Source: Candidatus Eiseniibacteriota bacterium
GTDB lineage: Bacteria > Eisenbacteria > RBG-16-71-46
Assembly: GCA_963717935.1 (NCBI GenBank)
Contig: CAVQXP010000004.1
Coordinates: 1,728,001-1,792,000 of the forward strand
Direction: 5' to 3'
DNA length: 64,000 nt
This document shows, one piece after another, positions 34,794 to 38,138 of this stretch (positions are counted from its first letter, which is position 1; each line of letters starts with the position of its first letter). Position numbers and translations under genes: made by a program. The notes beneath the pieces are model-generated. The model did no database searches. It was not told the DNA's origin and saw only the letters and a program-made list of their open reading frames with translations.

Positions 34794-34826
34794 GCGGGCG
34801 GGGTGGATGGTGCAGGCGAAGGGTGG

Positions 34827-34863
34827 GGGCCCGGGCTCGATGCAGAGCCCGGGCCCTTTTCTT
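34827..34863 (+). terminator. Intrinsic terminator closing the ccm operon
   Basis: GGGCCCGGGCTC-N6-GAGCCCGGGCCC then TTTTCTT. Confidence 0.8.
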
Positions 34864-34865
34864 CC

Positions 34866-34894
34866 TTGGCAACTGCACGGATGTGCAGTATCTT
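34866..34894 (+). promoter_or_regulatory. Sigma70-type promoter with palindromic operator (candidate LexA box) in the spacer
   Basis: TTGGCA (34866-71), 17 nt, TATCTT (34889-94); ACTGCAC-GGAT-GTGCAGT at 34872-34889. Confidence 0.75.
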
Positions 34895-34901
34895 CAGCCC
34901 G

Positions 34902-35171
34902 GTGTCCAGACCCGCGAGGTTCGAATCGCTCAGCGACCCCGTGGACGTGCTCACGGTGTTCGTGGCCGGCAAGGTGAAGCCCCTGCGCTTCCGTTGGCAG
35001 GGCCGGGTCATCCGCGTGCGCAAGGTGAGTGGAGAGTGGACCCGCCGCGAAGGCCAGGCCCTGCTGCGTTATTACGCGGTGGAGGGTGCTGCGGCCGGGA
35101 CCTACGAGCTCTGCTTCGACGCCCGGGGCCCGGGTTGGATCCTCTCGCGGGCCTGGCCCGCAGGGGCATGA
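34902..35171 (+). CDS. Small conserved-looking protein (DUF6504-like), 89 aa
   Basis: PVDVLTVF..GKVKPLRFRWQGR.I.V.KV..EW...YYAV...TYELCFD...WIL; GTG 7 nt after -10; ATGA coupling to the next gene. Confidence 0.7.
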   Translation: MSRPARFESLSDPVDVLTVFVAGKVKPLRFRWQGRVIRVRKVSGEWTRREGQALLRYYAVEGAAAGTYELCFDARGPGWILSRAWPAGA

Positions 35172-35211
35172 AAAAGGAGGGAGGGCTGCCGCGGCTCCGT
35201 GGCGGCCCCGG

Positions 35212-36441
35212 ATGGCCATGTGGATCCTGCTCGCGGACATGGACGCCTTCTTCGCCTCGGTCGAGCAACTCGACCGTCCCCACCTGAGGGGCCGGCCCGT
35301 CGTCGTCTGCGGCGACCCGGGACGGCGTGGCGTGGTGACCGCGGCCTCGTACGAGGCGCGGCCCTCGGGTGTGCGGGCCGGGATGAGCCTGGCCGAGGCG
35401 CGCCGTCTCTGCCCGGGGGCCGAGTACGTCGAGGGCCATCCGGAGCGCTACGTCGCGCTCTCGCTCCAACTGCTCGACCTGTATCTCTCGTTCACGCCGG
35501 ACGTGGAGCCCTTCAGCGTGGACGAGGCGTTCCTCGGCCTCGATCCGAAGGAGGCGACGCTCGATCAGGCCGAGGCCGTGGCGCGGCGCGTGCAGCATGC
35601 GGTGGACGAGCGTTTCCGGCTCGGGGTCTCGGTCGGCGTGGGCCCGAACAAGCTGGTGGCCAAGATGGCGGCGGGGCTCGGAAAGCCGCGCGGCCTCACG
35701 GCTCTGGACGAGGAAGGCTTCCGCCGGGCCTTCTGGCCGCTCGAAGTGCAGGAGTTGTGGGGCGTGGGACCGAAGCTCGCCGGGCGCATGCGGTCGCTCG
35801 GGATCATGACCGTCGGCGATCTCGCCCGCGCCCCCGTCCCGTCCCTCAAGGCTGCCTTCGGTGTGGTGGGCCCGTCGCTGCGCGAGGCCGCCTGGGGAAG
35901 GGACGACACGCCGCTGGTGCCCTACCATCAAGGCGCGGACCCGAAGTCCATGGGGCACGAGGTCACCCTGTCGGCGGACTCGGCCGATCCCGCCTTCCTC
36001 GAGGGGACGCTGCTCCGGCTCGCGGACCAGGTGGCCCGACGGCTCCGCGGCGGGGGTTTCGTCGGCCGGACCGTGACCCTGAGGCTGCGCGACGAGCGCT
36101 TCGTGACGGTGACCCGGCAGCGCGCGCTGGAAGGCTACACCGACGACCATCGGCTCATCTTCGAGACCGCGCGCGCCCTGTGGCGTGCCCACTGGCAGGG
36201 CGGGCCTCTGAGGCTGTTGGGCGTGAGCGTCTCGGCGCTCGAGCGGGGGAGGGAGCACCCGCAGGCCGAGCTGTTCGAGGAGGACCGGCGGGAGGATCGC
36301 CTGACGAAGACGCTCGACCGCCTGCGCGACCGCATGGGCGAGGCCGCGCTCGTCCCCGCCGGCTCGCTCACGCATCGGCGCGCCCTCGGCCACGTGCCCT
36401 TCGGTGCGCGTCCCGGCCGCGGCAGGGAGGAGGCGGGATGA
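35212..36441 (+). CDS. dinB: DNA polymerase IV (Y-family)
   Basis: DMDAFFASVEQ, RGVVTAASYEAR, SVDEAF, GVGPNKLVAKMA, LWGVG, KSMGHEVT, LRLLGV. True start may be ATG 35168 with an indel. Confidence 0.95.
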   Translation: MAMWILLADMDAFFASVEQLDRPHLRGRPVVVCGDPGRRGVVTAASYEARPSGVRAGMSLAEARRLCPGAEYVEGHPERYVALSLQLLDLYLSFTPDVEPFSVDEAFLGLDPKEATLDQAEAVARRVQHAVDERFRLGVSVGVGPNKLVAKMAAGLGKPRGLTALDEEGFRRAFWPLEVQELWGVGPKLAGRMRSLGIMTVGDLARAPVPSLKAAFGVVGPSLREAAWGRDDTPLVPYHQGADPKSMGHEVTLSADSADPAFLEGTLLRLADQVARRLRGGGFVGRTVTLRLRDERFVTVTRQRALEGYTDDHRLIFETARALWRAHWQGGPLRLLGVSVSALERGREHPQAELFEEDRREDRLTKTLDRLRDRMGEAALVPAGSLTHRRALGHVPFGARPGRGREEAG

Positions 36442-37352
36442 GCACCGGCGATCTGTTCGCGGGCTTCCCCGAGAAGGAAGCGCCCCGTCCCGCAGACCCC
36501 GGCCGGCGCATCCTCATCGGGACCTCGGGCTATTCCTTCGCGGACTGGGTGGGGCCCTTCTACCCGCCGGGCACGCGGCCGGGCGACTTCCTGCCATTCT
36601 ACGCGCGGCACTTCGACACGGTCGAGGTCAACTCCACGTACTACCGCGTCCCGTCTCCCGGGGCGATCGAGCGGATGGAGCGGAAGACCCCGCCCGGCTT
36701 CCGCTTCATGGTCAAGGTGAACCAGGCCATGACCCACGAGCGCTCGCTGGAGGCGGGCCTGGTGCGCGATTTCCGCGCCGCGCTCGGGCCGCTCAAGGCC
36801 GCAGGCAAGTACGAAGGCCTGCTGGCGCAGTTTCCCTGGGGCTTCCGCCGCACCACGGAGAACGAGTCCCACCTCGCCGCCCTGCGGGAGTCGCTCGCGG
36901 ACGAGCCGCTGTTCGTCGAGTTCCGCCACGCCTCGTGGGCCGCGCCGGACCTCGCCGGCTGGCTGCGGGATCGGCGCCTCGGCTTCTGTGCGGTGGACGA
37001 GCCGCGGCTCGAGAGCCTGATGCCCCCGGTGGCCATGGTGACCGGGGACGACGCCTACGTGCGCTTCCATGGCCGCAACGCGAAGAACTGGTGGGGAAGC
37101 CGGCCCTCCGCCGCGGTGGGCGCCGTTCCCCGGGGGACGGGAGTGGTGACCGGGGACCGTTACGACTACGAGTACAGGGCGGACGAGCTGAAGGAGTGGG
37201 CTCAGAAGGTGCGCGAACTCGCCGGGCAGGCGCGTCGGACCTATCTCTTCTTCAACAACTGCCACGCGGGGCAGGCGGCGCGCAGCGCGAAGCTCATGCA
37301 GGAGCTGCTGAGGCAGCAGGATCCGCCGGCTCGATCAGGCAGCACCTCCTGA
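36438..37352 (+). CDS. DUF72 (YecE/YunF) family protein
   Basis: IGTSGYSFADWVGPFYP, VEVNSTYY, F.FMVK, LAQFP, EFRHASW, YVRFHGRN, YDYEY, FFNN. Confidence 0.93.
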   Translation: MSTGDLFAGFPEKEAPRPADPGRRILIGTSGYSFADWVGPFYPPGTRPGDFLPFYARHFDTVEVNSTYYRVPSPGAIERMERKTPPGFRFMVKVNQAMTHERSLEAGLVRDFRAALGPLKAAGKYEGLLAQFPWGFRRTTENESHLAALRESLADEPLFVEFRHASWAAPDLAGWLRDRRLGFCAVDEPRLESLMPPVAMVTGDDAYVRFHGRNAKNWWGSRPSAAVGAVPRGTGVVTGDRYDYEYRADELKEWAQKVRELAGQARRTYLFFNNCHAGQAARSAKLMQELLRQQDPPARSGSTS

Positions 37353-37362
37353 CGAGGCCCCC

Positions 37363-37406
37363 GATCGAAACGGCCATCCCCGCGAGCGGGGATGGCCGTT
37401 TCGATC
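37363..37406. terminator. Long perfect inverted repeat between convergent genes
   Basis: GATCGAAACGGCCATCCCCGC / GCGGGGATGGCCGTTTCGATC. Confidence 0.75.
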
Positions 37407-37421: not shown

Positions 37422-38138
37422 CTAGCGGTAGATCGACTTGAGCGTGCCCCAGGTCGAGGGGTGGGCCGGCGTGGCGCAGTCGGCGTTGATCTTCACGATG
37501 ATGTCGTTGACGTGACCCCAGGTGCCGAACTGGTGGAGGTCATCCGCCGGCGAGCAGTCGGGGGCGAGGAACGCCGGATACGAGGCCGGCTTGGTGAGGT
37601 AGGGCGTCTCGCCGGTCCCGAAGCCGTTCGCCATGGCGAGGTCCAGGGTGCAACCGATCTCGAACACGCCGGTCGTCGTGCCCGTGAAGCTGGACGCGAT
37701 GGGGATGAAGTCGATGAGCTGCACCTGGCTGACGATGGAGGTGACGTTGAGCGTGCCCGAGCCCGAGCCCCAGGCCACCGCCGGATCCGAGTAGAGCTCG
37801 AACGTCCCGCCCAGGAAGGTCTGGTGATAGGTGATGAGGCCGGTCCCGGTGACCGAGTCGTAGAGCGAATAGTCGGGCGGCACCGATGTCATCTCGACAC
37901 CGCACTTGATCTCCCACTGCGTGCCCAGCACGTATTCGTCCCAGGACTGCCCATGGAAGACCTTCGGGTTCCCGGAGTTGGGGAGCGGGCGCGACGTGGA
38001 CGCGCGTCCGATCTGCACGCCGGGGATCATCCCGGGGCGCGACGTGGACGTGTAGATGCCCGGCACCGGATCTGCGAACGCGGCGAGTGACGCCAGCAGG
38101 AAGAGGACGACGAGCGAGATGGAGGAGCAGCAGCGCAT
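37422..38138 (-). CDS. Secreted protein of unknown function with C-terminal STWGTLKSIYR
   Basis: GAGG RBS; signal peptide ending AAFA; T/S/G-rich beta-type body with several Cys; short C-terminal tail. Confidence 0.75.
   Translation of the reverse strand: MRCCSSISLVVLFLLASLAAFADPVPGIYTSTSRPGMIPGVQIGRASTSRPLPNSGNPKVFHGQSWDEYVLGTQWEIKCGVEMTSVPPDYSLYDSVTGTGLITYHQTFLGGTFELYSDPAVAWGSGSGTLNVTSIVSQVQLIDFIPIASSFTGTTTGVFEIGCTLDLAMANGFGTGETPYLTKPASYPAFLAPDCSPADDLHQFGTWGHVNDIIVKINADCATPAHPSTWGTLKSIYR

What the first reader, a model, noticed from the sequence alone, without database searches (positions are those of the whole stretch)
34866..37352. Putative SOS cassette: small unknown protein + DinB + DUF72 behind a TGCAC-N4-GTGCA operator
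Seen: directly after the ccm terminator, a promoter (TTGGCA-17-TATCTT) whose spacer is filled by the perfect palindrome ACTGCAC-GGAT-GTGCAGT. Three tightly coupled genes follow, closed by a long hairpin. Established, from memory: the Fibrobacter succinogenes LexA box is TGCNC-N4-GTGCA, which this core matches; DinB is a translesion polymerase; DUF72 has no settled function. Inference: a damage-inducible three-gene module distinct from umuDC and imuABC, which would also reveal this lineage's LexA motif.
Basis: partly seen in the sequence, partly recalled or inferred. Interest (0 to 1): 0.8.

Follow-up and report, generated by a model that had tools for sequence, protein, structure and literature searches.

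The report
SOS polymerase operon with DUF72 partner
Three genes (a small partner protein of an already described family, a Y-family DNA polymerase and a DUF72 protein predicted to act on damaged DNA) sit behind a palindrome that also lies at the lexA and recA promoters and is likely the DNA-damage repressor site of the uncultured Eisenbacteria, so this is a known kind of likely damage-induced operon with a lineage-wide DUF72 add-on.

Summary
The palindrome ACTGCAC-N4-GTGCAGT fills the promoter spacer. It recurs at this genome's lexA and recA promoters, at lexA in 20 of 20 family genomes and at recA in 19 of 19, and it tracks one LexA recognition helix. It is very likely the LexA box of Ca. Eisenbacteria; I found no paper describing it, and the Fibrobacter match is recalled only. 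The small protein is not unknown: it is a stand-alone ImuB C-terminal domain (DUF6504; hhalign 89%). The polymerase keeps its catalytic acids, a clamp motif and a RecA-N-terminus-like tail. That is the PolY + ImuB-C (+RecA) module described in 2013, 2019 and 2026 and shown damage-inducible in Geobacter; the scan also noted such ImuB-C/DinB operons in other genomes. Not found in print: DUF72 directly follows this polymerase in 41 of 41 close loci and lies downstream in 19 of 20 loci from other families of the phylum, but in only 1 of 30 loci of another phylum. Its role is untested. Verdict: new variant of a known kind, moderate interest.

The parts
34825..34858 (+). Terminator-like hairpin closing the upstream ccm operon; likely insulates the cassette
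   Evidence: searches (14 pairs plus T tail; z -4.1), ccmF by Pfam
34866..34894 (+). Sigma70-type promoter TTGGCA-17-TATCTT
   Evidence: 9 of 12 matches; 2 found, 0.1 expected; a TAnnnT hexamer follows the box in nearly all orthologous loci listed
34872..34889 (.). Operator ACTGCAC-GGAT-GTGCAGT, inferred LexA box, filling the spacer and touching the -10 hexamer
   Evidence: joint top site of the genome; same motif at lexA and recA; co-varies with the LexA recognition helix
34902..35171 (+). Stand-alone ImuB-C (DUF6504) protein, 89 aa from a GTG 7 nt after the -10 hexamer (start inferred; the upstream ATG at 34881 lies inside the operator)
   Evidence: Pfam; hhalign to ImuB C-terminus 88.8%, E 2.5e-6; all-beta model pLDDT 89.9; start comparison
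35218..36441 (+). Y-family DNA polymerase (PolY/DinB-like), 407 aa, catalytic D7, D102, E103 intact
   Evidence: Pfam, NCBIfam; the three acids invariant in 67 of 67 aligned sequences
36262..36276 (+). QAELF, beta-clamp-binding-type motif (motif class recalled)
   Evidence: Q 55, L 63, F 66 of 67 sequences
36286..36366 (+). RecA-NT-like motif in the C-terminal tail of the polymerase
   Evidence: hhalign to RecA residues 10-36, E 6.7e-4, probability 27%; nine control windows under 1%
36438..37352 (+). DUF72 protein (TM1631-like; TIM barrel by the literature), 304 aa, start overlaps the polymerase stop (ATGA)
   Evidence: Pfam E 7.7e-63; 1vpq E 5e-47, STYY motif kept
37363..37406 (.). 20-bp perfect hairpin between DUF72 and the convergent gene 37422-38138; likely transcript end
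   Evidence: single copy in the genome and not conserved in sequence in 8 relatives

Best explanation
This is a three-gene operon, likely repressed by LexA and switched on by DNA damage, that encodes a stand-alone ImuB-C protein, a Y-family polymerase with intact catalytic residues and a DUF72 protein predicted to act on damaged DNA. Shown from sequence: promoter, operator, gene content, intact active site, conservation. Inferred: a LexA dimer bound in the spacer blocks RNA polymerase; after damage, RecA filaments trigger LexA self-cleavage (the genome's LexA has the VAAG, GDSM and TVK motifs) and the operon, lexA and recA are derepressed together. The polymerase would load on the beta clamp through QAELF, dock RecA through its RecA-NT-like tail and use ImuB-C as small subunit, a Pol V-like PolY-ImuB-C-RecA mutasome without DnaE2. 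DUF72 is most likely a co-induced repair nuclease or lesion-binding protein acting at the same damage sites; that step is the weakest. Other families of the phylum hold one operon lexA-[Y1-transposase-like]-imuB-C-polY-DUF72; in the window's family it is split and each half has its own box.
For: Operator: the six best sites of the genome (score 19 or more) are this one, a second DUF6504 gene, upstream of mraZ, recA, lexA and the gene after lexA; 3 Mb of simulated DNA gave 1 site at 18 or more. A matrix trained only on polymerase-cassette sites scored 10-27 at lexA in 20 of 20 family genomes (background 99th percentile 7.1) and 10-23 at recA in 19 of 19 family loci with upstream DNA. An exact pattern occurs in 38 of 41 family genomes; the reversed pattern gave 3 hits. 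Further sites front a radical-SAM gene, a DEAD/HRQ1-type helicase, second imuB-C/polY genes and lexA, the second cassette running on to a second dnaE. 23 distinct LexA loci with an STNG recognition helix carry the box (2 of them as TGAAC-N4-GTTCA); 9 of 9 paralogues with an SPAT helix carry CGAAC-N4-GTT(C/T)G instead. Gene order: small gene in 42 of 45 and DUF72 in 41 of 41 close loci with enough flank; lexA directly upstream in 13 of 20 loci from other families. ImuB-C homology; active site and tail. Literature: PolY + ImuB-C operons are described, and the Geobacter lexA-imuB-C-polY operon is damage-induced and co-transcribed (PMC6511836); DUF72 is enriched near polB2 and related to UV-damage endonuclease (PMC11791011).
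Against: No binding, induction or activity data exist for this lineage. recA lacks the box in 23 of 23 loci of family f7, in 2 of 2 of f13 and in 2 of 4 loci from the same order. 7 of 20 polymerase loci from other families have no lexA, no small gene and no box nearby, 6 of them still with DUF72. 3 of 45 close loci lack the small gene, so it is dispensable in some genomes. The RecA-NT match is weak in absolute terms (27%). The DUF72 link is rare outside the phylum (1 of 30), and the genome's second DUF72 gene has no box. In this genome the helicase has no box and no radical-SAM homologue was found.
Confidence: 0.85

Rival explanations
1. DUF72 is a passenger: the SOS unit is imuB-C + polY, and DUF72 is co-transcribed only because it was caught behind the polymerase gene early in the phylum.
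For: polY next to DUF72 in only 1 of 30 loci of another phylum; DUF72 is common on its own (147 of 151 genomes, often 2-4 copies); the second copy here has no box.
Against: The link survives where lexA, imuB-C and the box are gone (6 of 7 such loci) and holds in 46 of 51 metagenome loci; the one outside case is lexA-DUF72-polY, another order that points to an independent link; an independent association with polB2 is published.
Confidence: 0.25
2. The palindrome is bound by another regulator, not LexA.
For: No binding test; the Fibrobacter consensus is recalled only; many genomes of the phylum have two LexA-like genes.
Against: Site at lexA in 20 of 20, strict co-variation with the LexA recognition helix, targets are typical SOS genes; the genome has one LexA over the Pfam cut-off.
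Confidence: 0.04
3. The polymerase works alone like E. coli DinB (Pol IV); ImuB-C acts separately, for example as a DNA-damage-binding protein as proposed in 2013.
For: Passes one Pol IV model cut-off (PRK02406, 263.8 vs 256 bits); 3 of 45 close loci lack the small gene; this genome keeps a boxed second ImuB-C gene with no polymerase beside it.
Against: Conserved RecA-NT-like tail that E. coli DinB lacks; published models support complexes for all 11 module types; in 7 of 7 relatives examined the second ImuB-C heads a polY-dnaE cassette.
Confidence: 0.2

Closest known systems
Active PolY + stand-alone ImuB-C (+RecA) module, GeoPolY-like; Geobacter sulfurreducens lexA-imuB-C-polY (PMC3765255, PMC6511836, PMC12926913)
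   Same: Small ImuB-C gene directly before an active Y polymerase with a RecA-NT-like tail; no dnaE2 beside it; LexA control; lexA in the same operon in sister families.
   Different: DUF72 as fixed third gene (word absent from the main text of all three papers); other LexA box (Geobacter GGTT-N10-AACC per PMC8565304); lexA split off in this family; phylum not named in PMC12926913.
ImuA-ImuB-DnaE2 mutasome
   Same: ImuB-C domain, Y-family fold, RecA-NT motif, SOS control.
   Different: ImuB-C is a separate gene, the Y polymerase keeps its catalytic acids, no imuA or dnaE2 in the operon, one dnaE in the genome.
E. coli Pol V (UmuD'2C-RecA) and B. subtilis YqjW-YqjX-RecA
   Same: Works like them by inference: polymerase + small subunit + RecA behind an SOS box.
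   Different: The small protein is not UmuD (no S24 hit) and not YolD by Pfam; UmuC model score 97.7 vs cut-off 431.
DUF72 / TM1631 (PDB 1vpq)
   Same: E 5e-47 over the whole length, two-tyrosine motif kept.
   Different: Endonuclease IV-like activity of TM1631 is a computational prediction only (PMC3828134); here the gene has a fixed polymerase neighbour and an upstream SOS box.
Fibrobacter succinogenes LexA box TGCNC-N4-GTGCA (recalled, from no call) and Gram-positive GAAC-N4-GTTC box (recalled)
   Same: Core TGC(A/C/T)C-N4-GTGCA fits the recalled consensus, including the loose fourth base; same N4 spacing as the GAAC box.
   Different: Extended here to (A/G)CTGC..GCAGT with the right arm merging into the -10 hexamer; recA sites use GTGTA; some sister families hold a second LexA with the GAAC-type box.

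Membership tests
LexA (SOS) operator | Palindromic site at the lexA promoter (autoregulation) | tested here: met
   G000 and 20 of 20 family genomes
LexA (SOS) operator | Site at recA and other damage-response genes | tested here: met
   19 of 19 family recA loci; radical SAM, helicase, second polY-dnaE cassette; absent at recA in family f7 (23 of 23)
LexA (SOS) operator | Cognate LexA with DNA-binding and S24 domains and cleavage motifs | tested here: met
LexA (SOS) operator | LexA binds the site; genes induced by damage | not testable with these tools
   needs gel shift and expression data
Fibrobacter-type LexA box | Consensus TGCNC-N4-GTGCA as published | tested here: inconclusive
   fits the recalled consensus; source paper not held, consensus not found
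ImuB-C superfamily (stand-alone) | Homology to the ImuB C-terminal domain | tested here: met
   hhalign 88.8%, E 2.5e-6; nine other ImuB windows at most 2.8%
ImuB-C superfamily (stand-alone) | All-beta domain with conserved C-terminal Trp and basic residues | tested here: met
   seven strands, pLDDT 89.9; W79 invariant in 110 sequences; conserved Arg
ImuB-C superfamily (stand-alone) | Same barrel fold as modelled ImuB-C | tested here: inconclusive
   no ImuB-C structure turned up to compare with
PolY-ImuB-C-RecA module | Active Y polymerase (catalytic acids) | tested here: met
   D7, D102, E103 in 67 of 67
PolY-ImuB-C-RecA module | RecA-NT-like motif after the little-finger domain | tested here: met
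   E 6.7e-4 against RecA 10-36, controls E 0.056 or worse; weak probability, 27%
PolY-ImuB-C-RecA module | Operon with stand-alone imuB-C, no dnaE2 in it | tested here: met
PolY-ImuB-C-RecA module | Physical PolY-ImuB-C-RecA complex | not tested
   no prediction or experiment on this trio here
ImuA-ImuB-DnaE2 | Inactive ImuB with fused ImuB-C, plus DnaE2 in the cassette | tested here: not met
   active site intact, domain separate, one dnaE in G000
UmuDC (Pol V) | UmuD S24 peptidase partner and UmuC-type polymerase | tested here: not met
DUF72 | Pfam PF01904 over the cut-off | tested here: met
   212.9 bits vs 25.3
DUF72 | Nuclease activity on damaged DNA (predicted in the literature) | not testable with these tools
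   needs an enzyme assay

The most novel reading that the evidence does not exclude
DUF72 is a lesion-processing nuclease dedicated to this polymerase: it nicks or trims at damaged or abasic sites and hands the 3' end to a PolY-ImuB-C-RecA complex, taking the place that the PHP barrel of DnaE2 has next to ImuB-C in the classical mutasome. The operon would be a cut-and-fill mutagenic repair unit and would give the widespread DUF72 family its function.
Probability: 0.2. Interest if true: 0.7.

Novelty: new variant of a known kind. Interest (0 to 1): 0.38.

Why it matters
It fixes the likely SOS box and regulon of an uncultured phylum from sequence alone, with a clean link between recognition helix and box that bears on how LexA motifs change. 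It also ties DUF72, a very common family without a tested function, to a translesion polymerase under a damage-response operator, and offers a compact three-protein set for testing the PolY-ImuB-C-RecA mutasome, which is so far only predicted. The core architecture itself is already in print.

Tried and rejected
Complex prediction of polymerase + ImuB-C + DUF72 with DUF72 scored: no verdict (score 0.00, mark 0.32), no evidence either way. Fold searches of the small protein: no Foldseek match at E 0.001, best Z 5.7; uninformative, though in line with PMC12926913 finding no solved relative of ImuB-C. Search for longer, fused homologues with the broad alignment: 1 hit of 201 aa, no ImuB (weak test). 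The same profile on pSymA gave one chance hit antisense in a transporter gene. Sequencing runs: no run held half of the words; one RNA library held short pieces from relatives, no evidence of expression. DUF72 search in the phylum of G154: 0 of 81 at E 1e-30, uninformative. A 96-aa reading of the small gene from ATG 34881 was rejected because that codon lies in the operator upstream of the -10 hexamer. A leaderless start is likely only for the closest relatives; most others start at an ATG 19-31 nt after the -10 hexamer. A REP-like repeat reading of the final hairpin was rejected (single copy). The site at C4:633669 lies inside a gene and was dropped as chance. The score 45 of 45 for boxes before the cassette is circular, as the matrix was trained on those sites, and is not used as a test. 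Papers not held.

Full report
Observation. The sequence shows a terminator-like hairpin (34825-34858) after ccmF, then TTGGCA-17-TATCTT with ACTGCAC-GGAT-GTGCAGT at 34872-34889. Three genes follow: 34902-35171 (DUF6504, just over the cut-off), 35218-36441 (Y-family polymerase) and 36438-37352 (DUF72), then a 20-bp hairpin. The 14-base core alone is unremarkable in the window. The nearest relatives of the polymerase lie mostly in records titled Ca. Eisenbacteria, so the lineage is inferred to be that phylum.

The operator. In the genome the perfect 18-mer occurs twice, here and before a second DUF6504 gene. A matrix built from 46 of 51 polymerase-cassette loci ranks six genome sites at 19 or more: these two, one about 160 nt before mraZ, and the promoters of recA, lexA and the gene after lexA; the next site scores 14.3, and 3 Mb of simulated DNA gave one site at 18 or more. 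I took 20 of the 58 family genomes with a lexA match, spread over genera: 20 of 20 have the box 59-96 nt before lexA, nearly always just behind TTGAC. For recA, 16 of 16 fetched family loci with upstream DNA (one more was too short) and 3 of 3 further family loci have it; 2 of 4 from the same order and 1 of 1 from f14 have it, while 23 of 23 from f7 and 2 of 2 from f13 do not. An exact pattern is found in 38 of 41 family genomes against 3 hits for the reversed pattern. I fetched 20 of the unassigned sites: among them are sites before a radical-SAM gene, a DEAD/HRQ1-type helicase, lexA and second imuB-C/polY genes, while a few could not be assigned. The second cassette runs on to a second dnaE in 7 of 7 relatives examined. 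Across 43 lexA-containing loci (3 of them duplicates), the box follows the recognition helix: 23 distinct STNG-type proteins have it (2 as TGAAC-N4-GTTCA), 9 of 9 SPAT-type paralogues have CGAAC-N4-GTT(C/T)G, and the 11 STRA-type proteins have neither. Kin are not independent, but this is the pattern expected of a LexA box. Binding is not shown. A search for Eisenbacteria + LexA returned 0 papers. The Fibrobacter consensus is recalled; PMC3091678 (two passages) confirms only that LexA was studied there, and searches gave no paper with the consensus.

The small protein. Homologues are 80-100 aa and widespread (601 representatives at E 0.001; 134 of 151 genomes of the phylum). A 110-sequence profile aligns with the last 115 residues of five alphaproteobacterial ImuB reading frames from imuABC plasmid loci (one is a 63-aa fragment) at 88.8%, E 2.5e-6, while nine other ImuB windows reach at most 2.8%. 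The model is all-beta. This is the stand-alone ImuB-C of PMC3765255 (passages), which says it is most often paired with dinB and often with lexA. The term DUF6504 gave 0 papers. The start is inferred to be GTG 34902.

The polymerase. D7, D102 and E103 are invariant in 67 sequences (the window's plus 66 of 68 loci given); QxxLF follows the little-finger domain; the next 27 residues align with RecA 10-36 (E 6.7e-4, probability 27%; controls under 1%). PMC6511836 (passages) describes this combination: an active PolY with RecA-NT motif coupled to stand-alone ImuB-C, with the Geobacter lexA-imuB-C-polY operon induced by damage and transcribed as one unit (the primary paper was seen only as a reference title). 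PMC12926913 (passages and sections 20 and 22) lists it among 11 module types with confident structural models. G000 has one dnaE and one Y polymerase (93% complete).

DUF72. It matches TM1631. PMC3828134 (passages) predicts an endonuclease IV-like DNA-binding role by computation, and PMC11791011 (one passage) finds it enriched near polB2 and related to UV-damage endonuclease. The word DUF72 does not occur in the main text of the three ImuB-C papers, and searches listed no paper on a polY-DUF72 operon. The supplement of PMC3765255 yielded only 1,510 characters of text and those of the two NAR papers were not read; they could list this neighbour. Among the 48 close loci, DUF72 follows in 41 of 41 with enough flank and the small gene precedes in 42 of 45. 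In 20 loci picked from other families, DUF72 lies downstream in 19 (adjacent in 18), lexA lies upstream in 13, the small gene was detected in 9, and 7 have no lexA, small gene or box. In metagenome loci found with DUF72, polY is upstream in 46 of 51 and imuB-C in 19 of 25 with enough flank. In another phylum only 1 of the 30 best DUF72 loci has a polY within 1.5 kb, as lexA-DUF72-polY. These sets come partly from the same genome collection and overlap.

Mechanism and verdict. Most likely (0.85) LexA represses the operon; damage activates RecA, LexA cleaves, and an active polymerase with clamp and RecA docking sites is made together with its ImuB-C partner and DUF72. Regulation is inferred from strong comparative evidence, the complex from published models, and the DUF72 role from fold, neighbourhood and one computational paper. 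It works like Pol V, is a member of the published PolY + ImuB-C class on all sequence criteria tested, and is neither umuDC nor imuABC. New, as far as my searches reach, are the phylum's LexA box and regulon and the fixed DUF72 gene. Earlier scan notes, read after my own tests, agree on DUF6504 = ImuB-C and on the mraZ and Y1-transposase sites; they are not counted as support.

Noticed in passing
G000:C4:653507-653965 (-), locus L001: IS200/Y1-transposase-like gene right after lexA with its own box; present after lexA in 20 of 20 family genomes, HUH motif mostly kept but the catalytic Tyr position is Arg or similar. In sister families f2 and f3 it lies between lexA and imuB-C/polY. Looks like a domesticated SOS gene; 0 papers; already noted by the scan (e1-9899943).
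   Followed up: partly
G000:C2:302358-302375, locus L240: Strong box about 160 nt before mraZ (division cluster), kept in 4 of 4 relatives where mraZ was found; already noted by the scan (e1-9957555).
   Followed up: partly
G000:C4:311863-312159, locus L007: Second ImuB-C gene behind a perfect box with no polymerase beside it; in 7 of 7 relatives examined it heads imuB-C-polY-dnaE, so this genome seems to have lost the rest of that cassette (93% complete).
   Followed up: yes
L364 (G004:C26:14000-16500): RecA interrupted after GVMFG by an intein-like insert (starts with Cys, ends His-Asn before Ser); at least 16 family genomes show RecA matches breaking at the same profile position. G000's RecA is uninterrupted.
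   Followed up: partly
L074-L076, L080, L082, L084, L085, L087, L088 and L199, L203: Families f8, f13 and f17 hold a LexA with a Gram-positive-type CGAAC-N4-GTTCG box; f13 and f17 also hold the STNG-type LexA, whose box in f13 is the intermediate TGAAC-N4-GTTCA. A natural series for LexA motif change.
   Followed up: partly
L011, L012, L023: Close relatives in which the box sits directly before polY and the small gene is missing.
   Followed up: no
window 37422-38138 (-): 238-aa protein with a signal-peptide-like start and no Pfam match, convergent with DUF72.
   Followed up: no
G000:C4:725194-727199: The DEAD/HRQ1-type helicase, boxed in some relatives, has no box here and matches in overlapping pieces, possibly a frameshift or internal repeat.
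   Followed up: no
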